Below are positions 4,506-59,125 of a DNA stretch of 64,000 nucleotides, piece by piece (the stretch's first letter is position 1; each line of letters begins with the position of its first letter). The translations under genes were made by a program, and so were the position numbers. The notes below the pieces were generated by a model. That model was not told where the DNA came from. It ran no database searches and was given only the letters and a program-made list of their open reading frames with translations. The stretch lies in IMG/VR virus record IMGVR_UViG_3300027295_000004; one strand, given 5' to 3'. Origin of the DNA: a virus (taxonomy: Duplodnaviria > Heunggongvirae > Uroviricota > Caudoviricetes).

Positions 4506-4506
4506 T

Positions 4507-4695
4507 ATGGAAATACGTACGTATCCAATTAACGATTATAATCTTTATGCCTGCAATTTAAAATTGCACATATCAGAGATTCTAGCGTTGCACTATGATA
4601 GTGAAGCACTATTTGAAAAACAATTGATTCAGAAAATCAAAGAGCAAACTGCAGAAGTTGCTGAACGCATTAAAACCCAAAAAGAAAATGTTTAG
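4507..4695 (+). CDS. Small hypothetical protein
   Basis: ATG 2 nt after the rnh stop; operon packing. Confidence 0.5.
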   Translation: MEIRTYPINDYNLYACNLKLHISEILALHYDSEALFEKQLIQKIKEQTAEVAERIKTQKENV

Positions 4696-9128: not shown

Positions 9129-9154
9129 TATGAATATAATTATATCATCAACAT

Positions 9155-9189
9155 AAAATAAAAGCCAGTTTTTAGCTGGCTTTTATTTT
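9155..9189 (-). terminator. Rho-independent terminator after the tail sheath gene (potentially bidirectional)
   Basis: AAAATAAAAGCCAG-loop-CTGGCTTTTATTTT inverted repeat. Confidence 0.75.
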
Positions 9190-9201
9190 TGAATGTATTG
9201 A

Positions 9202-11532
9202 TTAGATCAATTCAGCGAAGTCTTGATTTGTTCTTGTTGCTACGAAGTTGACAAGGATGAACTCACTCGCTCTGACTGGCTTGAGATAAATGTCTACAAC
9301 CATCTCATTTCGATCGATTACAGAACCGGTGTTATTCCGTTCATCGCACACGATCAGATAATCATACAGACCTTCATTGCGTTTTGCATTCTCAAACAGC
9401 GGTGTCAATACGTTGATTACTTGCGTTCTTGTGAATACTGTATTAGGCTCGAACACGAAGTATTTAAGAACTCTAGCAGTTGGCTTCTCAAGAGCTAAGA
9501 ACAAGCGACGCACATTAATACGATCGAATGCACTTGGTTTTCTGAATAGAGTCTTCTGGCCCCAGATTACGTACCCATCGTTAGGGAAGTAGCACACAGG
9601 ATTTTGTCCGATGCGATAGAGAAGATCGCGTTCTTTTTGGTTAGGATTGATTGCAAGATCTACCACATTGCGTACAATGCCTCTTGTCAATCCAGCCGGT
9701 GCAATCCATGGGAAACGATCTCTATCAGTTTCAGCCAATGCGCGCCCTGCCCACCCAGAGAATGGAACCCAGCAATAACCATCAGCGGCGCTGTCGTATA
9801 CTCTCACCCAGTTTGCATATGATACTGAATATGATGTATTTGCAGCTTGATACAGATTGCGTAGCGGCCAGTATACTACTTTAGAGAATGGATTGGTTAC
9901 GCGATCGCATTTGGATTCAAATACTTTGTAGTTGGTACCATTAACAAGGAGCTGGCGGAGTGGATCACTAATATGGATGTGGTCTTTGCGTGTTGATTCT
10001 GCGAAGTTGTTGAACAGATTGAAGATTGTTTTGTGAGCATCGCCAATACCATTGTCCCCAGTGAAGCTACCGTCAAATGAAGCCAATTGGGTAAGTGCTG
10101 CATTCGGTACAAATACAGTATCGTCAAAGATTTCAGACCCTAATGTGGCAGATGTTGTTCTTGTCGTAGCCCAGATAGTGCTCAGCCCGCCATCGAGAGT
10201 TATGTCGATAGGAATCAAATCTGGATTCGATACACATGCAAAAATACGAGCCAATTTATCTGGAAGATTACCGATTAATTTATTTGCATCTGTAGTTGTC
10301 GCAAATGTGCTAGCTTCATAAAGACTTCTTGATTCTGAGATGTTAGTGGACGCAATTGTTTTGCCGTCTGGCAGAACGATAAATCCTGTGCCTGATACAC
10401 CAGTTGTTTTCCAGAAGCGAACCTTATTAGCTGGCTGACCGCTAGCGTCTGACCATGTAGTAGATTTCGAAATATATGGATTTACAAGTACTTTCAAATT
10501 AGAAGATGAATTATTTACAACATCTTCGATGAAGAATGATTTTGGTGGTCCTCCAAGCGGATCTGCAACTCTGCGTGACGAATCGAGCGAGCCGATATAT
10601 GTCTCTACTAGAACTTTGTCGAGTGTACTATTACTCGCCCCAGCATAAATGGATTTGCGTACTTTAAAGAGACCCAAGACAATTGTATCGTTGTATGATG
10701 TTGTGTCATATACAAAATTCGGTACAGTTTCAAGAATTTCTGAAACAGAACCGGCTACACCGGCGTAGGATGCACTTAGCGCAAACCCAACTCTGCTTGA
10801 ATCGACAGTGGCATATGTATTCGCACTGTTCACTGCTTTCAGATTCAGAATGTCTGTAAAATCTTGTGTAGGATTTGCTAATGCATTGTCTATAATCCCG
10901 ACATAATATCCTTCTTGGATGTTATTGGACATCGACTTTGTGGTATCAATCACAATCATACCTGCGGAACTTAGTTTATTAACTCCCGTGCCGGTCGCAA
11001 ATCTTGTTGCATTTGTTGCAGATAGTGCAGCAGCCGTAGCGCTCGCAGCCCATGAAATATTGTTGTTAATCAAGTCATAATACTCATCTTGTGTTAGTTC
11101 GACGTGATATGGTTCACCAAACACCAATGTATTAGAAATCAAGCTAAACGATGAAGTTGCTCCTGTTGCTGTTCCTACTGCTGCTGCACTATATGTCGAC
11201 GACGCAGGAATTACAGGATACACCAGTGCACCAAATTTTTCACCATAGCTGCTGCCAGTACCACTACCATATGGAATTCTTGTAGCGATAAGATTACCAC
11301 CGGAATTCAAATACTCGCGGCATGTGTGATAAAAATATCTTTCAGCTGCATTTGCCGGAGTACCATAAACAGATTCAAATTCTGAAAAACTTGTAACTGT
11401 AATTGGTTCTTCTGTAGGTCCTTGGCTTGCATATCCAAGAACCCATGTATTAGTGCCAACTGTTGGTTCAACGCGTAGGGTTAGATCGCGTTCTCTGATT
11501 TCTACGCCTGGTGATTCGATTGTACGTGCCAT
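9202..11532 (-). CDS. gp18: Contractile tail sheath protein (T4 gp18-like)
   Basis: 'SPGVEIRERDLT' N-terminus; 'WIAPAGLTRG', 'WGQKTL...SAFDRINVRRLFL', 'FVFEPNT..TR', 'VCDERNNT..VIDRNE..VDIYLKPVRASEFILVNFVAT'. Confidence 0.97.
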   Translation of the reverse strand: MARTIESPGVEIRERDLTLRVEPTVGTNTWVLGYASQGPTEEPITVTSFSEFESVYGTPANAAERYFYHTCREYLNSGGNLIATRIPYGSGTGSSYGEKFGALVYPVIPASSTYSAAAVGTATGATSSFSLISNTLVFGEPYHVELTQDEYYDLINNNISWAASATAAALSATNATRFATGTGVNKLSSAGMIVIDTTKSMSNNIQEGYYVGIIDNALANPTQDFTDILNLKAVNSANTYATVDSSRVGFALSASYAGVAGSVSEILETVPNFVYDTTSYNDTIVLGLFKVRKSIYAGASNSTLDKVLVETYIGSLDSSRRVADPLGGPPKSFFIEDVVNNSSSNLKVLVNPYISKSTTWSDASGQPANKVRFWKTTGVSGTGFIVLPDGKTIASTNISESRSLYEASTFATTTDANKLIGNLPDKLARIFACVSNPDLIPIDITLDGGLSTIWATTRTTSATLGSEIFDDTVFVPNAALTQLASFDGSFTGDNGIGDAHKTIFNLFNNFAESTRKDHIHISDPLRQLLVNGTNYKVFESKCDRVTNPFSKVVYWPLRNLYQAANTSYSVSYANWVRVYDSAADGYCWVPFSGWAGRALAETDRDRFPWIAPAGLTRGIVRNVVDLAINPNQKERDLLYRIGQNPVCYFPNDGYVIWGQKTLFRKPSAFDRINVRRLFLALEKPTARVLKYFVFEPNTVFTRTQVINVLTPLFENAKRNEGLYDYLIVCDERNNTGSVIDRNEMVVDIYLKPVRASEFILVNFVATRTNQDFAELI

Positions 11533-13971: not shown

Positions 13972-14709
13972 ATGAATGTCAAATTAAAACAACTTTTAGA
14001 GGCACGCAAGAAAGCAAAAGGCGCGAAGTTCAAACAAACGTCAGCTACTAAAGCTCCTGGCGATGCATTTAATGCGCCTAAAAAAGGGCTATCCGGTGCA
14101 GGCCCTGAGGGAGCAAAAACCCCAGTCAAACCAAAAAGTACCGTTAAAGAATCAAGAGTGCCTGCATTTGGTGCTAGATTCAATCGTCTATTCGAGCAAA
14201 CACTTACTGAGCATGAAAATATGCTCGCAGAAGAAGATGGTGAACTATACGCTGAATATGATATGATGTCAGACGACGATCAAGTCGATTCCGATCTTAT
14301 TGGTGCTGAAGGAGAAGATGTGACAATTACCCTTGATAAAGAGACGGCTAAAAAGCTTCATGCATTGCTGGCTGCAGTCATTGGTGGTGAAGAAGATGGC
14401 GGAGAGGGTGAAGAAGAAGGGGGAGAAGATTATGGATTAGGTGAGAGCAAAGATGAGGAAGAAGAAGACGATGAAGAAGTCGTTGAAGAAGAAGGTCATT
14501 ATAGCATGGGAGCTGCTAATCTCGCAGCCGGTGCTAAGCTTGCACAAACAAGTACAGACAAAGTTAAGTGCAAACAGGTGGCACGCCCAGGCAAAGCAAG
14601 CCCGACAAAATCATACGACAGTAGCGGCAAGCTTAGCGCCGTTGGTGCTGCTAAACCACAACCGTTTCAAGTGAAAAGCAGTGTTGCCGCTGGTAAGGAT
14701 CTTTTCTAA
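13972..14709 (+). CDS. Low-complexity late protein with basic ends and a very acidic core; possible head core/internal protein
   Basis: Lys-rich N- and C-termini, Glu/Asp/Gly-rich centre; TAAGTA at 13953-13958; strong terminator downstream. Confidence 0.6.
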   Translation: MNVKLKQLLEARKKAKGAKFKQTSATKAPGDAFNAPKKGLSGAGPEGAKTPVKPKSTVKESRVPAFGARFNRLFEQTLTEHENMLAEEDGELYAEYDMMSDDDQVDSDLIGAEGEDVTITLDKETAKKLHALLAAVIGGEEDGGEGEEEGGEDYGLGESKDEEEEDDEEVVEEEGHYSMGAANLAAGAKLAQTSTDKVKCKQVARPGKASPTKSYDSSGKLSAVGAAKPQPFQVKSSVAAGKDLF

Positions 14710-14731
14710 TAGGCAGTCATATTGATAAACT

Positions 14732-14762
14732 AAAAAAGGAGAGCGTAAAGCTCTCCTTTTTT
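14732..14762. terminator. Bidirectional rho-independent terminator between convergent genes
   Basis: AAAAAAGGAGAGC-GTAAA-GCTCTCCTTTTTT perfect 13-bp stem. Confidence 0.9.
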
Positions 14763-15105
14763 ATTCGAATGAAATCACCAATTTCTCGTTTAAGTATTTG
14801 CTTGTTTTATTCTTGCCAATATAAAACATTAGCTCTTGATATGGTTGCGTGTTTTTGACTGCTATCTTGTCTACGCTATAATCAAAAATTATCCCATTAT
14901 CTGTAATGAATATATCAAACGGAATAGGTATCGGCAGAATCTCAATAGATGGTTTGGATGTCTTGATGTAGAGGTCAAACGAAAACGCATTTATCTTTGA
15001 CAGCACAAATCTGCCTGTTTTGAATACGTTGGTTCCATTAATTGATAGCTTAATGGTTTTTTGGAAGTGCTGCTTTAACGCATTTTCGATTTTGTCTATT
15101 ATCAT
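14761..15105 (-). CDS. Hypothetical protein
   Basis: 114 aa, last gene of the minus-strand operon. Confidence 0.6.
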   Translation of the reverse strand: MIIDKIENALKQHFQKTIKLSINGTNVFKTGRFVLSKINAFSFDLYIKTSKPSIEILPIPIPFDIFITDNGIIFDYSVDKIAVKNTQPYQELMFYIGKNKTSKYLNEKLVISFE

Positions 15106-15494
15106 GAGTTCATGAATCTTAATTTATCTTCAGGGCTTAGCGGCAACATATTTGAGTCAAAATAGTCCCAAAATTTTGCAACTTCGTCTTCTGTCGTTAC
15201 TGGAATTTGTGTAATGATCGAAGATCCCTCTGCACCAAACAATCTATATTCTTGCCAGAGAATATCCCATGCAAGAATTAGATTGCGGGCTGCTGGTGTG
15301 AATTTTAATCCACCCCCACCACCACCTTCATATCGTAGTGTAATTTTACCTCGAGGGCTATTGAGTAGACTATTACTTGTTGTTATGAATGCTCTTCTAG
15401 TTGATGCTGCCCCTGGCTTTGGATTGCGCCTAATGAATTTGACCTCAAGTACATTAGTTTCCAGCAGATTGCTTAGTTCAGTGAGTGATGCCAT
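15102..15494 (-). CDS. Hypothetical protein, possibly SH3/WYL-like (DUF2693-type)
   Basis: 'LLETNVLEVKFIRR...TRRAFIT' resembles 'L..GVVEV.F.K.DG..R.M..T'; Gly6 loop. Confidence 0.45.
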   Translation of the reverse strand: MASLTELSNLLETNVLEVKFIRRNPKPGAASTRRAFITTSNSLLNSPRGKITLRYEGGGGGGLKFTPAARNLILAWDILWQEYRLFGAEGSSIITQIPVTTEDEVAKFWDYFDSNMLPLSPEDKLRFMNS

Positions 15495-15497
15495 ATT

Positions 15498-15839
15498 TTA
15501 TTGTTCCTCTTTGAGGCTTACTTTGCCGAATAGTCTATCCTCGTTAATATATCGAACTTCGACCCCCTTATGTTTGATGCCCGGAATCCCTCGATCATTA
15601 GGAAATAGAACCATATCTCCTACTTTGACATTGTCGCTGCATTTGGGTCCCTTGAGAATAATTTCTCCTACTCTCCACATGTTATAGGTAACACCTGGGT
15701 CTACCCACAGAGAGCCTCGCTTGACAAGACCTTCACCGTTATTATCTTTATAAGCAATTGCTAGTGTATCACCAAACAATTCACTGATTTCATAGTCTTC
15801 AGGAAGTGCGGAGCTACTGTATTTTTCTAAATTTTCCAT
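15498..15839 (-). CDS. groES: Co-chaperonin GroES/cpn10-like (T4 gp31 analogue)
   Basis: 'ELFGDTLAI...mobile loop...VGEIILKGP...VKVGDMVLFP...G......YINEDRLFG'. Confidence 0.8.
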   Translation of the reverse strand: MENLEKYSSSALPEDYEISELFGDTLAIAYKDNNGEGLVKRGSLWVDPGVTYNMWRVGEIILKGPKCSDNVKVGDMVLFPNDRGIPGIKHKGVEVRYINEDRLFGKVSLKEEQ

Positions 15840-15853
15840 ATGGGTGATTTATG

Positions 15854-16237
15854 TTACTTTTTGTAGATGTCAAGATCTTTTACCTTAAAATCAATTCTTT
15901 CCAAATACAACCGAACTTCTCTTTCAGAAATTTCCATATTTTTGGCAATTAATTTTACAGTATCGTCGTCTTTGCTATTTTCCGCTTTTGCTTTCTTGAT
16001 GTAGTTTAATTTACGAAATTTTACTCTCGGCAATGAGGTCATAAACGCATTATACCAATCTTGCTTATCAGCCAATGCCATCCAATATCTATTGGTAGTT
16101 TCGTTCAGAATGTATGTAACTTCTGGCGAATGCATTGATAGCCATCTTTGAATGAGAAACGGCACAAAGTCATTTTCTTCTTCGAGCAACTCTGGTTGTT
16201 TCGAATAAAGGATATTTTTAAGATAATCAAATAGCAT
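15854..16237 (-). CDS. gp62: Clamp loader small subunit (T4 gp62-like)
   Basis: 'FVPFLIQRWLS...LNE.N...KQDWY....LPRVKFRKLNYIKK...LIAKNMEISERE..LYL' follows the gp62 pattern. Confidence 0.65.
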   Translation of the reverse strand: MLFDYLKNILYSKQPELLEEENDFVPFLIQRWLSMHSPEVTYILNETTNRYWMALADKQDWYNAFMTSLPRVKFRKLNYIKKAKAENSKDDDTVKLIAKNMEISEREVRLYLERIDFKVKDLDIYKK

Positions 16238-16836
16238 TAGAGAATTGCCGTCTTTGAGGTTGCGACAAAAATGTCATCAATCATAACATAAAACTCATTA
16301 ATGACATTATTTGTAAATTTCGTTAATTTATCACTATCTCCTAATACATCTCGTGTCGAGTAAGCGAATGCTGGTGCCTTTGCTCCTGCACTGATATTCA
16401 CTGCTAAGTGTCCAAGACTTGCACCATTTACTTCATGACAAATAGAAACACTAGCCTTTCCTTTTGGAAGAACCAATGAATGATGGTCTGATACAAATTC
16501 GTTGTTAACCATAATGTCGTCTCCTTCGATAGATACTCCTGGCACTCCTTCTTCCCATAGAAGCTGTGCAACTTTCGCTGCGAACAATCGTTGGAAACTT
16601 ACTCCACCAAACCTGCAGACGTTTGGAAGTTCCCAAACAAACTGAATGGCGTCCTCACTGTAAATGTAATCATTCTTGAGAGCATCTTCAAGGTCAACGA
16701 GATTATCTGTTACTTCCATTGATCCTCGAAATGCCATGATATTGCCAAGCGGATGTACATTCTTGCCAAAATATCTATAAGCAAATCTTTGATGAATCAG
16801 CGAGCCGTCGTATTGTGTAATTTCTTTGTTAAACAT
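16237..16836 (-). CDS. DUF366-family protein (LplA/BPL, class II synthetase-like fold)
   Basis: 'YDGSLIH..FAY..FG......I.AFRG...V...LVDLED......I.SEDA.QF..E......G...QRL.......EGDDIMV....K.SVSI......GHLAVNI' recalls the DUF366 consensus. Confidence 0.7.
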   Translation of the reverse strand: MFNKEITQYDGSLIHQRFAYRYFGKNVHPLGNIMAFRGSMEVTDNLVDLEDALKNDYIYSEDAIQFVWELPNVCRFGGVSFQRLFAAKVAQLLWEEGVPGVSIEGDDIMVNNEFVSDHHSLVLPKGKASVSICHEVNGASLGHLAVNISAGAKAPAFAYSTRDVLGDSDKLTKFTNNVINEFYVMIDDIFVATSKTAIL

Positions 16837-17290
16837 AATATAGTGGTGATGTTGTTAATTTGTTAATATATAGCGGGATGTCTTTAGAATCAATATATAA
16901 TCCTTGATAGCGCCAAAATATTTTATCTCCTTTTGCCAAAATCTTTTCAGCAATTCGATTTTTGATTATTTCGACTGCATTATTGTGGGGTCTCCAATCG
17001 TTGAGCAATTCATCTGGATAGTCGTCGAGGATAAACTTCTTGTCTGTTACCTTATATCCCCTGCGAATAATTTCATCTTTTATTTCGACATGTCGCTTGT
17101 GCAGGTATAAAATCTTATCAGTCCAAAATAAAATATGTCCTTTCCCAAGCGTAAATTCGTTGGGTACTTTTGATTTCATTTTGAATTTATTTTTTCTCAA
17201 CATGCCATCCACAATAAGCAATTCAGATTGCTCTGCGATTAAATGCTGATCTAATAGCATATTAGGCTCAATGCCAGCATTGCATCTCAT
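16829..17290 (-). CDS. denV: Pyrimidine-dimer DNA glycosylase-like protein (T4 endonuclease V / DenV family)
   Basis: 'L.DQHLIAE..EL', 'FTLGKGHILFW.DK..YL.KR..EI..E..RRGY'. Confidence 0.85.
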   Translation of the reverse strand: MRCNAGIEPNMLLDQHLIAEQSELLIVDGMLRKNKFKMKSKVPNEFTLGKGHILFWTDKILYLHKRHVEIKDEIIRRGYKVTDKKFILDDYPDELLNDWRPHNNAVEIIKNRIAEKILAKGDKIFWRYQGLYIDSKDIPLYINKLTTSPLYYV

Positions 17291-17907
17291 GGAATAAAAT
17301 AAAGAGGCTTGGTTTGATAACTGTGGACTTCGATGAATTCATTATCTTTAATTTCGTATACTACTCTAGGGTTGATGCTCTGACTACATCTATTTGTAGC
17401 TGTTGAAGAAAAATCCCCAGTCTCTGGATCCATGAATAGAGTATTATCCGAACGTGTAACAAAAAGCTGATTGGTTAAAATATTATACATCCAACAAGCC
17501 CACGTTCCTTTAAATTTTTCAAAACATTGAAAGCCATGGATATGCAATTGAAACGGGATTACACTACTATCTATTTCATATGTATGATTGTCTCGAATGT
17601 GTTCGGGAATAAGCTCTTTGTGGTTTGTTAGGATGCCGTTGTGAGCAACCAACCAATTCCGATATTCAAAAGGATGGCATCTTATTGGTGTAAATGTATG
17701 ACCAATCCCAGTAGGCGCTCGCAGATGACCAAGATAAAGAGATGCATCATTCGCATTGAATCTGATATCCATGTCATCACTTTTGTATATAGTGTGTTTA
17801 TTATTTCTCCGAAATACTCCGCCAAAACTACTAAACCCTCTAACGGTATTTGCGTCGTATAATTCATTGAATCTTTCCAATTTAGTTGATTTAAAAATTC
17901 CGCACAT
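17287..17907 (-). CDS. Class II (Ntn) glutamine amidotransferase, stand-alone
   Basis: N-terminal 'MCGIF' nucleophile, 'GHLRAPT', 'HPF', 'AHNGILTN', 'IDS', 'GTWA'. Confidence 0.88.
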   Translation of the reverse strand: MCGIFKSTKLERFNELYDANTVRGFSSFGGVFRRNNKHTIYKSDDMDIRFNANDASLYLGHLRAPTGIGHTFTPIRCHPFEYRNWLVAHNGILTNHKELIPEHIRDNHTYEIDSSVIPFQLHIHGFQCFEKFKGTWACWMYNILTNQLFVTRSDNTLFMDPETGDFSSTATNRCSQSINPRVVYEIKDNEFIEVHSYQTKPLYFIP

Positions 17908-17911
17908 ATGA

Positions 17912-18592
17912 TTAACTATACTTTGCTAAAAACCTCTTTTCACTATTTTTCCATCTTTCATTATCTGTAGAACTCAGTCCGCCTGATGCGTGTGTGACAT
18001 GGATAGGAACTGTTGACATTTTCAACCCTGCTTTATTTGCGCGAAGACAAAAATCAATATCATAATGATGGAAATCGAATTGAGGATCAAAAAGCACACC
18101 ATTATCCATAAGTGCCTTTCTATTAGCAGCTAAAAACAGCCCATCCATAACGATGCATCTAGATGGGGAAGGTCCAAAAGATGTTGCGAAAGATTGGTTT
18201 GTATTTGGAATATAATGATTCACAAATCCCATCCATTGTTCTCTAGGTGACATTAAATGCCAAAGTGCCGGTGATTTGATTTCTGTATTAGAACTACCAG
18301 CAAGACCCAAGATGTCGTAATTTTCAAATCCTTCTTTCAATTTTTCAAACCAAAAAATATCTTCAATTACGACATCATCATGAACACACACTACATAATC
18401 ATGCTCACATTCCAAAATTGCATGGTTGTAAATTTCGGATAGGCCTTGCTTATTGTTATAAGCAACATATGTCTGGTCCGAGACTTTAGCCTTTCTCAAG
18501 AACTTTCCAAGATGGGAATTACACCAAAAATCGTAATGGTGCATTTTTGTCGCTGTGATGAAATAAATATCAGTACTTTTCATAATTCTCAT
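17912..18592 (-). CDS. GT-A fold glycosyltransferase (GT2-like)
   Basis: 'LSEIYNHAI...DYVVCVHDDV', 'MDGLFLA', 'FDFHHYDIDFCLRA'. Confidence 0.85.
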   Translation of the reverse strand: MRIMKSTDIYFITATKMHHYDFWCNSHLGKFLRKAKVSDQTYVAYNNKQGLSEIYNHAILECEHDYVVCVHDDVVIEDIFWFEKLKEGFENYDILGLAGSSNTEIKSPALWHLMSPREQWMGFVNHYIPNTNQSFATSFGPSPSRCIVMDGLFLAANRKALMDNGVLFDPQFDFHHYDIDFCLRANKAGLKMSTVPIHVTHASGGLSSTDNERWKNSEKRFLAKYS

Positions 18593-19326
18593 TGAATGCC
18601 GTATTTCTCATAGTCAATGGAAATTGCATATTCCATGGAATCTTTTAACCCGGCATTAATAAATCCTTGTAATCTATTGGCGCATGCGACACATTCGCCG
18701 CATGAAAGTGTTTTAACACCCGGAATATAAACCGGGTCGTAGCATGTCCATGTCAGTTCGAATGGTACGTTTAATTCTGCACCTCTTCTAATGATTTCTT
18801 CTTTATTCATCGTCATTAGAGGTGCTTTAATTTCAATGCTATTTTTACGATTAAGGCAAATAACTCTATTAATTGCTTCCAAAAACTCTGCAGAAGCGTC
18901 CCAATAACCCGACAGAGTATCTGCTTGTTGTGCTCCATAATATACTTCATTTGATTCTGTGCTTTCAGCGAAACCTACCGCAGTGCTCAGCATAATCATA
19001 TTACGATTAGGCACGTAACTTAGTGGCTGCGGATCTCCAAGAACATCTTTTGCTTTTGGTATGTCATATTCTCCGTTGAGCAATGCAGATGTTTGCAAGT
19101 AGTCAAAAACATGCTTCAACGAAATTTCATGTAAAATTACTTTGTTGTTCGAAAGCGCCGCCAAATGATCTACTACTGCAGCTGCTCTGGCACATTCAAT
19201 GGAATGCTTTTGGCCATAGAAGAAATTCAAACAATATAAAACTTCACCTTCTTCTAATTTTGAAGCGACGTCATACAACAGCACTGTGGAATCTAAGCCG
19301 CCGCTAAAGATAATAACCTTATTCAT
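18589..19326 (-). CDS. queC: 7-cyano-7-deazaguanine (preQ0) synthase
   Basis: 'FSGGLDST', 'YGQKH', 'YVPNRNMIML', 'TWTCYDP', 'CGECVAC..R..GF'; start reassigned to ATG 19326. Confidence 0.95.
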   Translation of the reverse strand: MNKVIIFSGGLDSTVLLYDVASKLEEGEVLYCLNFFYGQKHSIECARAAAVVDHLAALSNNKVILHEISLKHVFDYLQTSALLNGEYDIPKAKDVLGDPQPLSYVPNRNMIMLSTAVGFAESTESNEVYYGAQQADTLSGYWDASAEFLEAINRVICLNRKNSIEIKAPLMTMNKEEIIRRGAELNVPFELTWTCYDPVYIPGVKTLSCGECVACANRLQGFINAGLKDSMEYAISIDYEKYGIQ

Positions 19327-19378
19327 AAATAAATATAACATACGGAAATGATGGTTGCAACTAATAAATAAATATTGT

Positions 19379-20224
19379 ATGGCAAACCTCAAACAAATTT
19401 TCCTAAACACATTACTCGAACAGGAAGCTCCTGAATCTGAAACCAATTATGATGCACAACAAGATGAGGCACCTCTTCGTGATCGTCTTGCAAAAAATGA
19501 TGTGCCTGAAGATGCATTAGACGTAGAGCCTGGACCCCCTAACACTGGATACAAAGCCGAAGTTGCCGCAGCAGAGGATTGGATTCAAAATATTGATGAG
19601 TTTGTCAAATACCTAAATGATACTGCGACTGGATCTATTAACCGACAAGTCAACGTATTAGATAGAGATAATAGTGTGTTTAAGGGAATTGCATCACGTA
19701 TTTCGGATAAGGTTGCGCGTGTTTCAAGCGACTTAGCTGAACTTAAAGAAATTATTGCTGGGTTTGTTATCGCATCGGATCGCAAGGCTAAGAACATTAG
19801 AATGGCTGATTCTTTTGAAAGTGAATTAACTCCGTCTGAAATCGTGATTGAGAGATTATCACGTTGCGGGTTTGAGTATAAATCGTCATCGCCAGCATCG
19901 CATAGAATGGTGCTTGAAACAGCAGACGGTGAGTTATTTGCTGAAATCAATCAAGAAGGTCTCGTCAATGGCGAGAGCATTGATGAGTACATGGAACGTC
20001 TTAATGCAGAATACAACATCACTGAACTAATCGATGATGCCGATGAAACCATTATCGGTGAAGATGTTATCATGGATGAAAAAATCGTCAAGCAAATTAA
20101 AGAAATCGATGTAAAATTGGCTACAAAGTGGGACTACGATTTATACATCAAACGCCGCGAGCTTTTGTCTAAGATGGAAACTAACTACATTGATGTCGCC
20201 AAAAGCTTAGTCGAGGGTGATTAA
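19379..20224 (+). CDS. Acidic hypothetical late protein (possible head/internal protein)
   Basis: Overlapping TAAATA motifs 19365-19374 just before the ATG; 'MANLKQIFLNTLLEQE' leader. Confidence 0.65.
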   Translation: MANLKQIFLNTLLEQEAPESETNYDAQQDEAPLRDRLAKNDVPEDALDVEPGPPNTGYKAEVAAAEDWIQNIDEFVKYLNDTATGSINRQVNVLDRDNSVFKGIASRISDKVARVSSDLAELKEIIAGFVIASDRKAKNIRMADSFESELTPSEIVIERLSRCGFEYKSSSPASHRMVLETADGELFAEINQEGLVNGESIDEYMERLNAEYNITELIDDADETIIGEDVIMDEKIVKQIKEIDVKLATKWDYDLYIKRRELLSKMETNYIDVAKSLVEGD

Positions 20225-21255
20225 TTTATTTGCATGTATGATGCTTTTGCAGCAATGCCGTTCTTAGCATGCTTTAGTAGAATTTGATAAGGAAATTCAT
20301 TTATTTTCTTATCAATGCAAATATCATTGATATCTTTATATATAGATAACGCAGCCGGCCATACAAATACGGTTTCCCCTTTGTCTACTAATTCAATAAA
20401 TTTATCAGTAACATCTTCATTGCGATCTTGATATGGATTGTCCAAAACCCATACAATTTTATAAAACGCCTTTAGTGTTTCTAATTGGCTCTCTTGTTTT
20501 GGAGTGCATGCAATTCCCGCAACTGCTACTCCATTTTTGACAAAGCATGCGTCTACAGGGCCTTCAAAAATAAAGCAATAGTCAATGTCGTTATTTACAT
20601 TATTCAAATTGAATATGCTTTTGTCTGAATTGATTTTTGACAAATATTTTGGGCCATCGTCATTGTCATTTATTTTTCTAGATTGGTAAAAGCAGATTTT
20701 ATTACCAATATCGTAAAATGGGATGATAATACGATCTCCGTGGTATTTGTCCTTGTGTGAAAAATAAATCGCCTTTGGTCTGTTTATGGCAGTATCTAAT
20801 TTTCTCATTTTAAGATACTTAACTGCTTTCGTTACAGCAGGGTCACTTTTATAAAAATCGATTACATTATCATCTAGCAGATTGATTGCATCGGTGGGTA
20901 GGTCCGGAATTGTGTATGTCTGTGATGATGCCTCTAATTTCTTAAAAAATTTGCCACCGGTGCCCATATCAAATCCATAATTTTTCATGGCATCATTAAC
21001 AATTTGAGACGGGCTTTGTCCTGTGACCTCTTTAATCCACCACAGCGCCGTCCATGAGTTTTGACAATTATGGCAAAACATTGAATTTGAACCTGGGTAA
21101 TAGTAAAGCCTTTTTTTCTTTAACCAACTTTTACCTTCTCTGCATATTGGGCATGATGCGTTATATTTGTCCCCAACTCGCCGAGCTTTGCCTGCATGAA
21201 GGTAAAACTTCTCAAGCACATAATCAGCTGGTAAATTATTGTCAAATTCGCTCAT
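20221..21255 (-). CDS. gp61: DNA primase (T4 gp61-like)
   Basis: Zn-binding 'CPIC...CHNC', 'IIIPFYD', 'PKYL', TOPRIM 'FIFEGPVDACF', 'VWVLDN'. Confidence 0.92.
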   Translation of the reverse strand: MSEFDNNLPADYVLEKFYLHAGKARRVGDKYNASCPICREGKSWLKKKRLYYYPGSNSMFCHNCQNSWTALWWIKEVTGQSPSQIVNDAMKNYGFDMGTGGKFFKKLEASSQTYTIPDLPTDAINLLDDNVIDFYKSDPAVTKAVKYLKMRKLDTAINRPKAIYFSHKDKYHGDRIIIPFYDIGNKICFYQSRKINDNDDGPKYLSKINSDKSIFNLNNVNNDIDYCFIFEGPVDACFVKNGVAVAGIACTPKQESQLETLKAFYKIVWVLDNPYQDRNEDVTDKFIELVDKGETVFVWPAALSIYKDINDICIDKKINEFPYQILLKHAKNGIAAKASYMQIN

Positions 21256-21280
21256 CTCTCTAAGTATAAATAAGGACTAT

Positions 21281-21646
21281 ATGAATTATAACGAATTGGT
21301 TGCATATTATCAAGTGAAATTATTAGGTGAAAAGGATTATCGTGGGTACAATCCTGATAATTTCGACCGTAAACATCAGAACATCACTACAACCAAGGAC
21401 AAAAATCAATTTCGTCCTTACAACAAGGTATCACAGACACTAACGACATCTGCCGACCAAATGCTAAAGAATATAGATAAATCTGCTCCTGGCTCGATTA
21501 TGAAAGTAACAGACCCAATAGCACAAGAAATAATGACATTCTATAACGTACGGCCTACCGAAAAAGAACCCGAAAAGAGATTGAACTCTGCTAATGGGTT
21601 AATGCTCATTCTCATAAATGGTGCATACTCATTGAAAAAAGAATAA
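21281..21646 (+). CDS. Hypothetical late protein
   Basis: Full T4-type TATAAATA at 21265-21272 and AGGA before the ATG. Confidence 0.65.
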   Translation: MNYNELVAYYQVKLLGEKDYRGYNPDNFDRKHQNITTTKDKNQFRPYNKVSQTLTTSADQMLKNIDKSAPGSIMKVTDPIAQEIMTFYNVRPTEKEPEKRLNSANGLMLILINGAYSLKKE

Positions 21647-54951: not shown

Positions 54952-57301
54952 AGTAATTGAAACAACATTGGGTGAAATCCGTGGAAATCCGCAACTACTT
55001 GAGCAATATGAAATCTGGGACGAAGAGACAAAGGAATGGACTTCATATCATAATTCATGCTATACTCATCAGTCAGAATTTCCAGAAGCAGACGAAGCAA
55101 AACATCCAATCAACGTAATCACAATTTATGATAACATATCTGAAAGCTTTTATAGTTGGGGTTTACATCCGTACGAAAAATCTGGCATCAACGCCGCGTT
55201 CGCATCGCAAGGAATTAAAGAGTTGGATGTTCAGAGAATCCATTATACCTATTGTAGAACCGAAACGGAGTTGCTCCAAAAATTTCTAGAGTTTTGGTCT
55301 AAAGATTATCCAGATGCAGTAACCGGATGGAATATTGAAGGGTTTGATATTCCATATATCATTAATCGGATTTCTTATGTTTTGGGAGAGGATGAAGCAA
55401 AGATGCTCTCTCCTGTGCGCAAGCTTTATGTTCGACAAGGAATTGCTACAAAGTTTGGCAGAGAAATTAATAAGTGGTATATTCGAGGAATGACTTGTCT
55501 TGATTATATGGACTTGTACAAGACCTTTAGTAGAGGAGAACAAGATTCATATTCTCTTAACAACATTGCAGCAGCAGAGCTTGAAATTGGTAAATTGGCC
55601 CACAATGCGTCGGATTTGGCAGCGCTTGCTGAAAGCGATTGGAATTCATTTGTTCATTACAATATTCATGACGTAAACCTTGTCAGATTGTTGGACGAAA
55701 AATTGAATTATGTTACTATTGCGAGATTCTTAGCTTATAAAGGATTTACCAAAATCGAAGACTCATTGGGTAAAATTATGATAGTGACTGGTGCGATGTG
55801 CAAGGAAGCTAATCGCATGAATAAAATCATTCCGACATTCAATGCAGTTGCAACACAAGAGGATTATGTTGGTGGATATGTCCGAGAACCGCAGCGTGGG
55901 TTGAATGAAGCAGTTGTATCATTTGACGCCAACTCCCTATATCCAAATACGATCATCACCCTGAATCTTTCACCGGAAACAAAAATCGGTAAAATCATTT
56001 ACAGGGATGACACCGAATGCAAAGTAAGATTTATCAACAAAAAAGAACAAGTATTTACCATAGACCAGCTTGAGGAATTTTGTACAAAAGGAAGGCTTGC
56101 ATTATCACAAGCAGGTGTTTTGTATCGTCAAGATGTCAAAGGCATTTGTCCGACTTTTATTGATTCACTTTATCAAGAACGGGTTGTTATCCAAAACCAA
56201 ATTGAACAGCTTGAATCACAGCAAGTAACACCAGAAATTAAACATAAGATTAAGCATTTGGATCAGATGCAGTACACAATCAAGATTTTCTTGAATTCTG
56301 CGTATGGTACTTATGCGAACAAATACAGTCCGTTCTATGATATTGATATGGCTGCAAGTATTACGGAAACAGGGCAGGCGGTTATTAAACAAGCAGCATC
56401 GATTGTTAATAAATTCTTTGTCGAGGAAAATGGTTTGCCGGATAAGGATTATATCGTATATGGAGACACAGATTCGGTTTATTTAACTATTAAAGATTAC
56501 CTCACAAAACATAATATTCCGATCTTAAAGGAAAACGGAGACGTTACAGAAGAATGCGTTGCAGCAACGGATACACTACAGTCATTCATCAATGATAAAA
56601 TTAATCATTGGGCGCGCAATACATTACATTCAGTAGATCCGCGATACTTCTTCAAGAGAGAATCAATTTGTGATGTTGGTCTTTTCTTGGAAAAGAAACG
56701 GTATATTCTTAGTGTGAGGTATGATGGCAAAAGAAACAAACACAAATACAAATATGTTGGTGTTGAAGTTCAGCGCAGTACATATTCAAATGCTGTTAAG
56801 AAGTTGATGAAGGATATCATTACGACCGCGTTTAAATCAAAAGATCGTGCGATTACTGACGCAAAGTATAGAGAGTGTTATGAGAGTTTCAAGACCTTAC
56901 CAATTGATGATATTGCATTGCGTTCCTCTATTAAAGATTATGAGAAATATGCTTCACAGTCGAACGGATTCAATATTGCATTGCATACTCCTATTCATGT
57001 CAAATCGGCGATTTATTTCAATACATTAATTAATACATTGAATTTGAAATCAAAATACATGCCAATCATTTCGGGCACAAAGATTCGGTATGTATACACA
57101 GCCCAAAACAAATACGGGCTCAAATGTATTGGATTTAATGACACAATCCCACCAGAGTTCGACATTAAAATCGACACAGAAAAAATGTTTGAGAAGCTAG
57201 TTGCACCTTGCATTGAAAGAGTGTATAGTTGTATCGGCTGGCAAATTCCAGACATGAGCAGACAATATCAATGTGATTTTTTAGATCTTTTTGCCTTATG
57301 A
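54944..57301 (+). CDS. gp43: Family B DNA polymerase, C-terminal fragment (rest of exonuclease plus polymerase)
   Basis: Exo II 'TGWNIEGFDIPYI', Exo III 'YNIHDV', 'SFDANSLYP', 'KIFLNSAYG', 'YGDTDS'. Confidence 0.95.
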   Translation: MNEVIETTLGEIRGNPQLLEQYEIWDEETKEWTSYHNSCYTHQSEFPEADEAKHPINVITIYDNISESFYSWGLHPYEKSGINAAFASQGIKELDVQRIHYTYCRTETELLQKFLEFWSKDYPDAVTGWNIEGFDIPYIINRISYVLGEDEAKMLSPVRKLYVRQGIATKFGREINKWYIRGMTCLDYMDLYKTFSRGEQDSYSLNNIAAAELEIGKLAHNASDLAALAESDWNSFVHYNIHDVNLVRLLDEKLNYVTIARFLAYKGFTKIEDSLGKIMIVTGAMCKEANRMNKIIPTFNAVATQEDYVGGYVREPQRGLNEAVVSFDANSLYPNTIITLNLSPETKIGKIIYRDDTECKVRFINKKEQVFTIDQLEEFCTKGRLALSQAGVLYRQDVKGICPTFIDSLYQERVVIQNQIEQLESQQVTPEIKHKIKHLDQMQYTIKIFLNSAYGTYANKYSPFYDIDMAASITETGQAVIKQAASIVNKFFVEENGLPDKDYIVYGDTDSVYLTIKDYLTKHNIPILKENGDVTEECVAATDTLQSFINDKINHWARNTLHSVDPRYFFKRESICDVGLFLEKKRYILSVRYDGKRNKHKYKYVGVEVQRSTYSNAVKKLMKDIITTAFKSKDRAITDAKYRECYESFKTLPIDDIALRSSIKDYEKYASQSNGFNIALHTPIHVKSAIYFNTLINTLNLKSKYMPIISGTKIRYVYTAQNKYGLKCIGFNDTIPPEFDIKIDTEKMFEKLVAPCIERVYSCIGWQIPDMSRQYQCDFLDLFAL

Positions 57302-58092
57302 AAATAGCACACGAAGCACCAATAGCAATATTAAAACAAGTACAGAAAGTAACGCACTATGAATATGTTCTAGTTCATCTTTTAGATGAATCACAAGAAT
57401 ATAAAGACCATTTCTACAGCAAAAGCAAGATTCCAGTCAATCAGCTAATACTTGATAACAGTATATTTGAACTAGGGCATGCTTTTGATTGGGATAAATA
57501 TGCAGTACATGTGCAGGGATTGAATCCTACTAGGTACATCTTGCCAGATGTTCTGGGAGATAAAGAAGACAGTATTCATAATGCGAGGGTTTGGATGTCG
57601 ACATATCATGACAAATTCAACAGGTCTCCACGTAATTTGTTACCAATGGCAGTTGTGCAAGGCCAATCAATGGATGAGCTGACCGAGTGTTATGTAGCAT
57701 ATTACAAAAATGGCATTAGAAATATCGCCATCGGATTCAATCATGATTTCTTTGTTAAAGATTCAGAGACTAGAGACTGGGATCAAGCAAATGGCAGAAT
57801 TCAATTTGTGAAACATCTCAAAGAAACAGGAGTATGGAAATCGGATTGCTATCATCATTTGCTCGGATGTTCTTTGCCAATTGAATTGGGATATCGAGGA
57901 TATAATGATATTAATTCTGTAGACACATCAAGCCCAATTCTACACGGATTGCTTGGTATTAAATATGACGCATTGGGAATTTATCAGAAGAAGAAAATCA
58001 AAATGAATGATTTGATTCATAGCGAGGTTTCTGATGAACAACTGCAAATTATACTTGATAACATAAAAACCTTTAGATATATTACTGAATGA
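57298..58092 (+). CDS. dpdA: DpdA-like DNA 7-deazaguanine transglycosylase (TGT-like TIM barrel)
   Basis: 'LILDNSIFELG', 'ILPDVLGD', 'MAVVQG', 'IAIG', 'HLLG', 'SVDTSSP' match my recollection of phage DpdA/TGT-like proteins; ATGA-coupled to PolB; queC in the same genome. Confidence 0.8.
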   Translation: MKIAHEAPIAILKQVQKVTHYEYVLVHLLDESQEYKDHFYSKSKIPVNQLILDNSIFELGHAFDWDKYAVHVQGLNPTRYILPDVLGDKEDSIHNARVWMSTYHDKFNRSPRNLLPMAVVQGQSMDELTECYVAYYKNGIRNIAIGFNHDFFVKDSETRDWDQANGRIQFVKHLKETGVWKSDCYHHLLGCSLPIELGYRGYNDINSVDTSSPILHGLLGIKYDALGIYQKKKIKMNDLIHSEVSDEQLQIILDNIKTFRYITE

Positions 58093-58652: not shown

Positions 58653-58654
58653 CA

Positions 58655-59125
58655 ATGAAGACTTATCTATCTTGGGATTACGTAGAGGAAAGTACTGAAT
58701 CATTAGCACAAACGCTCGTTACAGATTATTCAGATAAGCTAAATGATTTTGTAATTTTGGCACCATATTATGGAGGGTGGCCTGTAGCCACAATGACAGT
58801 CAATGCGATACGAAATTTGACATCCACCGAATTCAAACCACCAGCAATTAATGAAACAGATCTAATTCGTCTTAATCTTCTTTCATTGTTTAATTCTCAA
58901 AGGTACTTGGTTATATTTGATGATGTCCTGGATACCGGAAAAGTCATTAATAATATTATCTGGAGAATTGATCATGAGTGCAGATCGTTTATCAATACAG
59001 ATAAAATCCATGAACGAATCATTGTCGCCACGATTGGTCGTAAAAGAAAGTGCGAATGGCCATGTCGGCATATTTTCAACACAGAATGGAAGTTAGATGA
59101 ATGGATTGTATTTCCATGGGAATAA
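58655..59125 (+). CDS. Type I phosphoribosyltransferase (purine PRTase-like)
   Basis: 'YLSWD' N-terminus, PRPP loop 'LVIFDDVLDTGKV', C-terminal 'WIVFPWE' typical of XGPRT-like enzymes. Confidence 0.8.
   Translation: MKTYLSWDYVEESTESLAQTLVTDYSDKLNDFVILAPYYGGWPVATMTVNAIRNLTSTEFKPPAINETDLIRLNLLSLFNSQRYLVIFDDVLDTGKVINNIIWRIDHECRSFINTDKIHERIIVATIGRKRKCEWPCRHIFNTEWKLDEWIVFPWE

What the first reader, a model, noticed from the sequence alone, without database searches (positions are those of the whole stretch)
16237..19326. queC - glycosyltransferase - amidotransferase - DenV-like - DUF366 operon: candidate pathway to an undescribed hypermodified 7-deazaguanine
Seen: five overlapping or abutting genes on one strand. 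Known: QueC makes preQ0; QueC with a class II glutamine amidotransferase (Gat-QueC) yields archaeosine (G+); phage DpdA inserts such bases into DNA to block restriction. A DpdA-like gene lies at 57298. Unusual: Gat and QueC are separate genes with a GT2 glycosyltransferase between them, followed by a DUF366-like protein of ligase-like fold and unknown function. Inference: the amidino or amino group of dG+/dPreQ1 may be further glycosylated and/or acylated, giving a new DNA base and a first function for DUF366. FolE, QueD and QueE are not in this window. Alternative: QueC homologues in type IV CBASS and Qat systems conjugate deazaguanine to proteins, but this QueC and Gat look canonical.
Basis: partly seen in the sequence, partly recalled or inferred. 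Interest (0 to 1): 0.88.

Follow-up and report, generated by a model that had tools for sequence, protein, structure and literature searches.

The report
Phage deazaguanine genes with DUF366 partner
An uncultured T4-like phage carries a complete kit for swapping guanine in its DNA for a 7-deazaguanine. Of the five neighbouring genes flagged, three (QueC, a stand-alone glutaminase and the uncharacterised DUF366 protein) belong to that kit, while the sugar transferase and the UV-repair gene are probably only neighbours, so a sugar-bearing new DNA base is unlikely.

Summary
Five co-directional, overlapping or abutting minus-strand genes encode QueC, a GT2 glycosyltransferase, a class II glutaminase (Gat), a DenV-like glycosylase and a DUF366 protein. 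The gene at 57298 is a DpdA3-family DNA transglycosylase. FolE, QueD and QueE lie elsewhere in the 195.9-kb genome.

- **DUF366:** it has a biotin/lipoate-ligase fold and follows the pathway. It is present in three complete phage genomes with QueC and DpdA3 and absent from three without. It overlaps QueC in an unrelated phage. In bacteria it sits inside queD-queC-DUF366-queE-folE operons, with a que or folE gene next door in 30 of 30 loci. This ties it to core preQ0 synthesis, not to a phage-specific decoration.
- **GT2:** relatives that lack the whole pathway keep it, including three complete genomes.
- **DenV:** it occurs only in the closest relatives.
- **Split Gat next to QueC:** it also occurs in Vibrio phage VH7D, which makes preQ1-derived bases, so it is not diagnostic of archaeosine.

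Most likely this is a DpdA3-type system yielding dPreQ0, dADG or dG+, with DUF366 as an unrecognised accessory of the CDG-to-preQ0 step. The scan reached similar readings before on other genomes.

The parts
18589..19326 (-). QueC (7-cyano-7-deazaguanine synthase). It has the PP-loop SGGLDS and the C-terminal CxxCxxC zinc motif.
   Evidence: PF06508 8.6e-54. TIGR00364 equivalog scores 160.4 bits against a cut-off of 150.3, while QatC scores only 20.6 against 280. Invariant S8, G9, G10, D12, S13, C209, C212 and C215 in 20 phage homologues.
17912..18592 (-). Small GT-A (GT2) glycosyltransferase with an unknown acceptor. It is probably a resident backbone gene and not part of the deazaguanine pathway.
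   Evidence: PF13712 1.2e-10. Invariant HDD and HHYD motifs. AF2 model pLDDT 95; nearest structures are majastridin 2NXV (Z 20) and STIV A197 (Z 14.8). Relatives and three complete genomes without QueC, DpdA3 or DUF366 retain it.
17287..17907 (-). Stand-alone class II (Ntn) glutamine amidotransferase domain with an MCGI N-terminus. It is the likely nitrogen donor for QueC.
   Evidence: PF13522 6.2e-9; phrog_12378 5e-16. It was found only in loci that also carry QueC or are cut before it. MCG/MCA is kept in 23 of 27 homologues. A homologue directly follows QueC in VH7D and KVP40-type phages.
16829..17290 (-). DenV-like pyrimidine-dimer DNA glycosylase. It is a passenger.
   Evidence: PF03013 8.5e-9; phrog_1183 3.4e-28. 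It is present only in the closest relatives (L016-L020, L100, L102, L103) and absent from all other arrangements.
16237..16836 (-). DUF366 protein with a biotin/lipoate-protein-ligase fold. It is a candidate accessory enzyme of preQ0 synthesis.
   Evidence: PF04017 8.2e-23. AF2 pLDDT 90.9; 2DDZ Z 23.1, LipB Z 12.0, BPL Z 11.9. Its presence and absence match QueC and DpdA3 in six complete genomes. It sits in bacterial queD-queC-DUF366-queE-folE operons.
15854..16237 (-). Clamp-loader-like (gp62-like) gene. It is the backbone anchor directly downstream of DUF366.
   Evidence: phrog_225 1.1e-9. It follows DUF366, directly or within about 1.5 kb, in nearly all of the 80 related loci.
57298..58092 (+). 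DpdA3-family DNA guanine transglycosylase. Its start overlaps the stop of the DNA polymerase gene.
   Evidence: 38% identity and 100% coverage to immuto26A_65 'DNA guanine transglycosylase'; 36% to CP220-group proteins. phrog_19058 4.7e-41. Family defined in PMC10516641.
58089..58652 (+). P-loop nucleoside/nucleotide-kinase-like gene coupled to dpdA3.
   Evidence: PF13521 AAA_28 5.7e-15; phrog_2107 4.8e-17. A homologue also lies next to DpdA3 in G011 and near it in G012 and immuto.
58655..59125 (+). Weak phosphoribosyltransferase-like gene.
   Evidence: phrog_8995 8.5e-5; PF00156 only 0.079. Immuto has an annotated PRTase beside FolE.

Best explanation
The five genes are real, but they are not one pathway. 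QueC, the stand-alone glutaminase (Gat) and DUF366 are three parts of a 7-deazaguanine DNA-modification system whose genes are scattered over at least five loci of this 196-kb T4-like phage: FolE, QueD, QueE, QueC/Gat/DUF366 and DpdA3.

Proposed mechanism:
1. FolE, QueD and QueE turn GTP into 7-carboxy-7-deazaguanine (CDG). This follows from the established pathway.
2. QueC amidates and dehydrates CDG to preQ0. Nitrogen comes from glutamine through Gat, by analogy with asparagine synthetase B (inference). DUF366, a biotin/lipoate-ligase-fold protein that keeps the family's conserved lysine, helps at this carboxylate-activation stage (inference from gene neighbourhood and fold).
3. DpdA3 exchanges guanine in phage DNA for the product. 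In studied DpdA3 phages this replaces all G.

The final base is most likely a known one (dPreQ0, dADG or dG+).

The GT2 glycosyltransferase is a backbone gene of this phage clade with an unknown acceptor. The que genes were inserted, lost or moved around it. DenV is an ordinary UV-repair passenger.
For: **Complete pathway in one DTR-bounded genome.** FolE, QueD, QueE-like, QueC above the TIGR00364 cut-off and DpdA3 are all present. No QueF and no TGT-family hit were found.

**DUF366 follows the pathway.**
- It is present in G000, G011 and G012, which have QueC, Gat, QueD, QueE and DpdA3. It is absent from G001-G003, which have none of them.
- QueC and DUF366 overlap in a phage that does not share this clade's backbone (L218).
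- It lies in queD-queC-DUF366-queE(-folE) operons in Desulfuribacillus and in a subsurface MAG.
- 41 of 401 genomes of that phylum carry it. In 30 of 30 fetched loci a que or folE gene is adjacent, and in 24 of 30 all four are.
- Fold: 2DDZ Z 23; LipB, BirA and LplA Z 10.8-12. hhalign places KLSVSI on BirA's KKLAGILVE (weak).

**GT2 is independent of the pathway.** Of 63 distinct GT2 loci, 34 are primase-GT2-gp62 without que genes and 6 lack que genes in another arrangement. Three complete genomes keep GT2 but lack QueC, DpdA3 and DUF366. In the GT2 tree the que-less forms nest among the que-linked forms.

**Gat.** VH7D has QueC directly followed by a Gat homologue together with QueF, and its pathway yields preQ1 derivatives (PMC10516641).

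**DenV.** It is found only in the closest relatives.
Against: - QueC and Gat flank or adjoin GT2 in three different arrangements: QueC-GT2-Gat, QueC-Gat-x-x-GT2 and QueC-..-Gat-GT2 at a second genomic site. The trio appears to have moved together once. This is more linkage than a pure bystander would be expected to show.
- No biochemical datum exists for DUF366, Gat or GT2, and the final base cannot be inferred from sequence.
- DUF366 is not needed by the studied DpdA3 phages: tblastn found no homologue in the CP220 group or in immuto. Its role is therefore accessory at most.
- Sequence-level support for the catalytic lysine is weak (E 0.043).
- The phyletic pattern rests on six complete genomes.
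Confidence: 0.58

Rival explanations
1. The amidine, amide or nitrile-derived side chain of the deazaguanine is further glycosylated by GT2 and/or acylated by DUF366, which gives an undescribed hypermodified DNA base.
For: GT2 is physically next to QueC and Gat in three arrangements and in both main GT2 clades. GT2 keeps its HDD and HHYD motifs. DUF366 has an acyl-adenylate-ligase fold. Studied DpdA3 and DpdA2 phages do carry decorated bases such as fdPreQ1 and mdPreQ1 (PMC10516641).
Against: Phages that have lost every que and dpdA gene keep GT2, including three complete genomes. DUF366 sits in bacterial core preQ0 operons, where no DNA hypermodification is expected. There is no QueF, so there is no aminomethyl handle. 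No ThyA-type hydroxymethylase is present either.
Confidence: 0.12
2. Gat with QueC acts as a split archaeosine synthase, as the fused Gat-QueC of phage 9g does, so the product is dG+. DUF366 and GT2 are irrelevant to the chemistry.
For: Fused Gat-QueC plus DpdA gives dG+ in E. coli (PMC6884629). The Gat nucleophile cysteine is conserved. In this clade Gat is never seen without QueC.
Against: VH7D carries the same split pair next to QueF and makes preQ1-derived bases, which need preQ0 as the output. Gat did not match the fused Gat-QueC PHROG (phrog_10428) at E 0.01, whereas QueC did. The DUF366 co-occurrence would remain unexplained.
Confidence: 0.2
3. DUF366 is only a syntenic neighbour of the clamp-loader-like gene in T4-like phages and has nothing to do with deazaguanine.
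For: In all 80 phage loci it lies upstream of the gp62-like gene, directly or within about 1.5 kb. In many of them no que gene lies within 10 kb.
Against: Complete genomes of that type have the que genes elsewhere, and genomes lacking the que genes also lack DUF366. The bacterial operons and the phage L218, which does not share this clade's backbone, place it between or beside que genes.
Confidence: 0.04
4. The pathway serves the phage's own large tRNA set (queuosine or archaeosine in tRNA) and not its DNA.
For: According to earlier notes of this scan, the genome carries about 31 tRNA genes. In bacteria, preQ0 is a tRNA-modification precursor.
Against: No TGT-family hit was found in the genome and no QueF. 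A DpdA3 homologue of proven DNA-modifying phages is present and is translationally coupled to the DNA polymerase gene.
Confidence: 0.04

Closest known systems
[quoted passage not shown] 2023, PMC10516641
   Same: The DpdA3 homologue is 36-38% identical over its full length. FolE, QueD, QueE and QueC are encoded by the phage. It is a large myovirus-type genome. As in immuto, a P-loop kinase lies next to dpdA3 and a PRTase-like gene lies nearby.
   Different: There is no QueF, DpdN, DpdM or DpdL. Instead there is a stand-alone Gat and a DUF366 protein, which tblastn (E 1e-3) found in no record of the isolate-phage collection other than the bacterial-looking MaAM05. The final base has not been determined.
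Gat-QueC of Enterobacteria phage 9g and of Crenarchaeota (dG+ / archaeosine); Hutinet et al. 2019, PMC6884629
   Same: A class II glutaminase and a QueC PP-loop ATPase are encoded together alongside a DpdA.
   Different: Here they are two polypeptides separated by another gene. The DpdA belongs to family 3, not family 1. The same split pair in VH7D coexists with a preQ1 route.
PH0223 of Pyrococcus horikoshii (PDB 2DDZ), Pfam DUF366 / PF04017
   Same: Same family: 81 bits against a cut-off of 29.9; profile against the 2DDZ sequence E 1.9e-10; structural match Z 23.1, rmsd 2.1 Å over 179 residues.
   Different: It is a phage copy with a roughly 10-residue insertion before the conserved GK-SVSI strand. 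No member has a known function.
Biotin protein ligase, lipoate protein ligase and octanoyltransferase (BirA/BPL, LplA, LipB; Pfam PF03099)
   Same: Same core fold (Z 10.8-12, about 150-170 aligned residues). The conserved Lys in GK-SVSI falls on the BirA KKLAGILVE lysine in a weak profile alignment.
   Different: No PF03099 hit at E 0.1. No glycine-rich GRGRxGR loop is recognisable. There is no C-terminal domain. Its genomic partners are que genes, not biotin or lipoate acceptor proteins.
Canonical bacterial preQ0 operon (queC-queD-queE(-queF) of Bacillus subtilis type)
   Same: Same enzymes. In the sampled phylum, DUF366-negative genomes have queC-queD-queE.
   Different: About 10% of the genomes sampled from that phylum insert DUF366 between queC and queE. 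The phage disperses the genes over the genome.

Membership tests
DpdA3-type phage 7-deazaguanine DNA modification system | A DpdA3-subfamily transglycosylase homologue | tested here: met
   tblastn: 38% identity and 100% coverage (E 7e-43) to immuto 'DNA guanine transglycosylase'; 36% (E about 1e-37) to CP220-group proteins. phrog_19058 4.7e-41.
DpdA3-type phage 7-deazaguanine DNA modification system | Phage-encoded CDG/preQ0 synthesis genes (FolE, QueD, QueE, with or without QueC) | tested here: met
   PF01227 5e-49; PF01242 6.7e-16. The QueE-like 281-aa ORF carries the QxEG...GCNLxC motif but matches Radical_SAM only at E 0.012, below the Pfam cut-off. QueC passes TIGR00364.
DpdA3-type phage 7-deazaguanine DNA modification system | 7-deazaguanine actually present in virion DNA | not testable with these tools
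   The phage is uncultured and known only as a metagenomic contig.
Gat-QueC archaeosine/dG+ synthase | Glutaminase domain fused N-terminally to QueC in one polypeptide | tested here: not met
   The two are separate ORFs with GT2 between them. Gat gave no match to the fused phrog_10428 at E 0.01.
Gat-QueC archaeosine/dG+ synthase | Class II (Ntn) glutaminase with an N-terminal Cys nucleophile | tested here: met
   The protein starts MCGIF. PF13522 scores 36.4 bits against a cut-off of 27. MCG/MCA is kept in 23 of 27 homologues.
QueC (TIGR00364 equivalog) | Score above the curated equivalog cut-off, PP-loop and Zn-Cys motif | tested here: met
   160.4 bits against 150.3. SGGxDS and CxxCxxC are invariant in alignment A5.
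QatC / CBASS type IV QueC-like protein-conjugating enzymes | Match to the QatC model above its cut-off | tested here: not met
   NF041925 scores 20.6 bits against a cut-off of 280.
DUF366 (PF04017) | HMM score above the gathering cut-off and the fold of 2DDZ | tested here: met
   81.3 bits against 29.9. Z 23.1, rmsd 2.1 Å, 179 aligned residues.
Biotin/lipoate protein ligase superfamily (BPL_LplA_LipB) | Shared catalytic-domain fold | tested here: met
   LipB 2QHT Z 12.0; BPL 1WNL Z 11.9; LplA 2ARS Z 10.8. Foldseek E 3e-5 to 1e-4.
Biotin/lipoate protein ligase superfamily (BPL_LplA_LipB) | Sequence membership in PF03099 and a conserved catalytic lysine | tested here: inconclusive
   No PF03099 hit at E 0.1. 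hhalign against a BirA aligns KLSVSI with KKLAGILVE, but at E 0.043 and probability 1.2%. No alignment was obtained to an LplA-like protein.
GT2 / GT-A glycosyltransferases | Pfam GT2-clan hit above cut-off, DxD-type motif and GT-A fold | tested here: met
   PF13712 scores 41.9 bits against 27. H71-D72-D73 are invariant or nearly so. GT-A structures match at Z 12-20.
DNA-base glycosyltransferases of phages | The acceptor is a modified DNA base, and the gene co-occurs with the base-modifying pathway | tested here: not met
   The co-occurrence part was tested. GT2 persists in three complete genomes without QueC, DpdA3 or DUF366 and without a ThyA-type hydroxymethylase. The acceptor itself cannot be tested here.
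T4 endonuclease V (DenV) family | Pyr_excise domain above the cut-off | tested here: met
   PF03013 scores 36.1 bits against 23; phrog_1183 3.4e-28.

The most novel reading that the evidence does not exclude
The phage's DNA carries an undescribed 7-deazaguanine. One route is DUF366 using its ligase fold to couple the CDG carboxylate, or the G+/ADG nitrogen, to a group other than ammonia. The other is GT2 adding a sugar. A milder and much more probable novelty (about 0.5) is that DUF366 is an unrecognised fifth component of preQ0 biosynthesis shared by bacteria, archaea and phages.
Probability: 0.12. Interest if true: 0.85.

Novelty: new variant of a known kind. Interest (0 to 1): 0.55.

Why it matters
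7-deazaguanine replacement is one of the strongest known ways for a phage to hide its DNA from restriction enzymes, and DpdA3 systems replace every G.

This locus adds an uncultured T4-like clade to that group. It also links two uncharacterised partners to the pathway:
- **A stand-alone glutaminase.** It is present but unannotated in the studied phage VH7D.
- **DUF366.** This structurally solved family has no described function in the libraries searched. Here it tracks QueC from Bacillota-type operons to phages. If DUF366 is a fifth preQ0-pathway component, the textbook FolE-QueD-QueE-QueC scheme is incomplete for a tenth of one bacterial phylum, for methanogens and for thousands of phages. 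The phage and bacterial operons offer simple genetic tests.

The negative result also matters. The glycosyltransferase that made the locus look like a route to a sugar-bearing base is most likely a bystander.

Tried and rejected
- **Complex prediction (QueC alignment A5 with DUF366 alignment A2).** The machine was unreachable. The job never ran, so there is no result of any kind.
- **blastn of the locus against isolate phages.** No match.
- **tblastn of GT2 against isolate phages.** No match.
- **tblastn of DUF366 against isolate phages.** The only hit is 'Microcystis phage MaAM05', whose neighbourhood looks bacterial (secF, glyS, mtgA, fliM). I did not use it.
- **The search for related loci in genome contigs with distant DUF366 alignments A3 and A4.** I replaced it with a family search over 401 genomes.
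- **Literature.** The terms DUF366, PF04017, COG2029, PH0223 and IPR007162 gave no functional statement. DpdA3 appears in only one relevant paper.
- **NCBIfam and PHROGs.** Neither has a model or family for DUF366.
- **Promoter and terminator scan of 14500-21500.** Counts were at the shuffled expectation (30 against 26.4; 4 against 4.4), so no transcript boundaries can be claimed.
- **Pfam on the small ORFs between Gat and GT2 in relatives, and on the neighbours of distant DUF366 copies.** Nothing was found.
- **GT2 as a glycosylase of hydroxymethyl-pyrimidines.** No ThyA-family gene was found in any of the six complete genomes.
- **QueC as a QatC/CBASS-type conjugating enzyme.** Rejected: 20.6 bits against a cut-off of 280.
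- **Archaeal contexts of DUF366.** I could not fetch these.

Full report
**1. What is there**

The window is bases 61047-125046 of a 195,888-bp IMG/VR phage genome. The genome has direct terminal repeats and is estimated to be 100% complete. It is T4-like: it has a primase (20221-21255), a split or long family B polymerase ending at 57301, and clamp-loader-like and GroES-like genes.

- QueC, PF06508, 8.6e-54
- GT2, PF13712, 1.2e-10
- class II glutaminase, PF13522, 6.2e-9
- DenV-like, PF03013, 8.5e-9 (phrog_1183 3.4e-28)
- DUF366, PF04017, 8.2e-23

QueC passes NCBI's equivalog model (160.4 bits against 150.3) and fails the QatC model (20.6 against 280). The Gat protein begins MCGIF.

The overlaps are as stated. 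However, the same overlapping, co-directional packing continues for four more genes down to 14761. A promoter and terminator scan is at chance level. Tight packing is therefore not evidence of a five-gene unit.

**2. The rest of the pathway**

The gene at 57298 has no TGT Pfam hit. It is 38% identical over its full length to the 'DNA guanine transglycosylase' of Flavobacterium phage immuto_2-6A and 36% identical to proteins of Campylobacter CP220-group phages. This is the DpdA3 subfamily. In the phages studied, DpdA3 goes with complete replacement of G (PMC10516641).

FolE (genome 125577-126185), QueD (147775-148326) and a QueE-like radical-SAM protein (166977-167822) are encoded elsewhere in the genome. 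QueF was not found. The pathway genes therefore sit at five or more separate loci, so adjacency is neither necessary nor sufficient for membership in this genome.

**3. GT2**

Homologues are abundant in uncultured T4-like phages (205 proteins at E<=1e-5). I fetched 80 IMG/VR loci plus several assembly loci and classified the neighbours with phmmer. Among 63 distinct GT2 sequences:
- 34 lie in primase-GT2-gp62like-GroESlike with no que gene.
- 10 lie in QueC-GT2-Gat-(DenV)-DUF366-gp62like.
- 13 lie in QueC-..-Gat-GT2 at another site, upstream of the gp41-type helicase.
- 6 lack que genes in another arrangement, five of them at that second site.

Three 100%-complete genomes of the first kind (211, 203 and 226 kb) have no QueC, no DpdA3 and no DUF366. 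For one of them I fetched the whole sequence and found none of QueC, Gat, DUF366, QueD, QueE, FolE or DpdA3. As a positive control, fragments of the QueC-containing kind do contain DpdA3.

In the GT2 tree the que-less forms nest inside both main clades, next to que-linked forms. The simplest reading is repeated loss of the pathway with GT2 retained. None of the six complete genomes has a ThyA-type enzyme that could supply hydroxymethyl-pyrimidines.

The model (pLDDT 95) is a minimal GT-A fold. Its nearest structures are majastridin (Z 20) and STIV A197 (Z 14.8). The acceptor is unknown.

GT2 is thus a backbone gene of this clade. One observation still speaks for a link: QueC and Gat adjoin GT2 in three arrangements, and the trio seems to have moved together once. 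I therefore leave about 0.1 for a role of GT2 in the pathway.

**4. DenV**

DenV homologues appear only in the closest relatives (those with GT2 identity of 66% or more) and in no other arrangement. DenV is a passenger.

**5. DUF366 in phages**

- In 80 further phage loci it always lies upstream of the gp62-like gene, directly or within about 1.5 kb. Often no QueC lies within 10 kb, although QueD and QueE frequently lie 5-8 kb upstream.
- Two complete genomes of that type (209 and 201 kb) do carry QueC-..-Gat-GT2, QueD, QueE, DpdA3 and a kinase elsewhere.
- Across six complete genomes, DUF366 is present exactly where QueC and DpdA3 are: three with all, three with none.
- Outside this backbone, a 71-kb contig of a phage that does not share this clade's backbone has QueC overlapping DUF366.

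**6. DUF366 in bacteria**

In bacteria the gene sits inside the core preQ0 operon:
- Desulfuribacillus alkaliarsenatis has queD-queC-DUF366-queE.
- A subsurface MAG has queD-queC-DUF366-queE-folE.
- In a sample of 401 genomes of that phylum, 41 carry DUF366.
- In 30 of 30 fetched loci a que or folE gene is adjacent, and in 24 of 30 all four are, usually with overlapping stops and starts.
- Of 20 DUF366-negative genomes from the same sample, only two have a true QueC. Both show queC-queD-queE without the extra gene.

DUF366 is therefore an optional but frequent member of the core preQ0 operon, in organisms where preQ0 presumably feeds tRNA (inference). That argues against a phage-specific decorating role and for a role in making preQ0 itself.

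**7. What DUF366 may do**

The AF2 model (pLDDT 90.9) matches PH0223/2DDZ at Z 23. It then matches LipB, BirA/BPL and LplA at Z 10.8-12 over about 150-170 residues, well above the class II aaRS matches at Z 6-8. Invariant residues include GDD and GK-SVSI. A weak profile alignment (E 0.043) puts these on BirA's WPND and KKLAGILVE, that is, on the adenylate-binding lysine.

Enzymes of this fold activate a carboxylic acid with ATP and pass it to an amine. The only carboxylic acid in the pathway is CDG, the substrate of QueC. My working model, which is inference, is that DUF366 assists or partly substitutes for the first, amide-forming half-reaction of QueC, or hands CDG from QueE to QueC. No paper in the searchable library and no NCBIfam model gives the family a function. 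In the ESM Atlas the largest DUF366 cluster (2,368 members) is 75% viral.

**8. Gat**

The stand-alone glutaminase keeps its Cys nucleophile in nearly all homologues. In this clade it is never seen without QueC.

The split arrangement is not new in sequence space. KVP40-type Vibrio phages have an unannotated homologue (27-28% identity, 93% coverage) directly after QueC. In VH7D the order is FolE-x-QueF-QueC-Gat. The VH7D pathway gives preQ1-derived bases, which need preQ0 as the QueC product.

The split pair is therefore compatible with a simple glutamine-dependent nitrogen supply to QueC, using the logic of asparagine synthetase B. It is not diagnostic of archaeosine, although dG+ remains possible (fused Gat-QueC gives dG+; PMC6884629).

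**9. Verdict**

The locus belongs to a DpdA3-type 7-deazaguanine DNA modification system and is a new variant of a known kind. Its novelty lies in the conserved DUF366 partner and the split Gat, not in a glycosylated base.

The scan has reached similar conclusions on other genomes. I tested the two claims that matter here myself:
- DUF366 lies in preQ0 operons.
- GT2 is retained after loss of the pathway.

The final base, the reaction of DUF366 and the acceptor of GT2 remain undetermined.

Noticed in passing
window 57298-59125; L005 (immuto) 7998-10002; G011 159722-161151: dpdA3 is directly followed by a P-loop nucleoside/nucleotide-kinase-like gene in this phage and in G011. The kinase lies close by in G012 and in Flavobacterium phage immuto. 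A weak PRTase-like gene follows here, and immuto has an annotated PRTase beside FolE. A base-to-nucleotide salvage or a pre-replicative route alongside DpdA3 is worth testing, given that DpdA3 phages replace 100% of G.
   Followed up: partly
L274 (Vibrio phage VH7D, KC131129.1) 4001-4609: The 'hypothetical protein' that starts at the stop of VH7D QueC is a homologue of this window's stand-alone class II glutaminase (27.9% identity, 93% coverage). It appears to be an unannotated member of the que cluster in the KVP40/VH7D group.
   Followed up: partly
L004 (MW495066.1, 'Microcystis phage MaAM05'): The only isolate-'phage' record with a DUF366 hit has secF, glyS, mtgA, gatD, fabI, engB and fliM around it. 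This stretch looks like bacterial DNA, so it may be contamination, a mis-binned record or a very unusual jumbo phage.
   Followed up: no
L015 (GCA_902566555.1 contig CACFJM010000003.1) 1229-5708: In this relative an IMPDH/GMP-reductase-like gene and a Methyltransf_24 gene lie between QueC and Gat-GT2. They might act in guanine-nucleotide depletion or in a further base modification.
   Followed up: no
L216/L217 (Logan ERR14949499/ERR14949489): A distant T4-like phage has primase-like-GT2-DUF366 and, 1 kb downstream, a FolE2-type GTP cyclohydrolase (PF02649) in place of FolE.
   Followed up: no
L220 (ENA ERZ27249388 k141_179478): The contig carries the queD-queC-DUF366-queE-folE operon and its flanks twice, as a perfect inverted duplication. 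This is most likely a palindromic assembly artefact.
   Followed up: no
window 19355-20224 (+): A 289-aa, very acidic ORF on the opposite strand separates the primase from QueC. It is 93% conserved in the nearest relative (L006). It was not scanned against any family library.
   Followed up: no
genome 128215-128919 (outside the window, +): A second AAA_28-type kinase paralogue lies here. In relatives its homologue sits just upstream of the primase-GT2 block, so hits labelled 'kinase' in the locus tables are a mixture of two paralogues.
   Followed up: no
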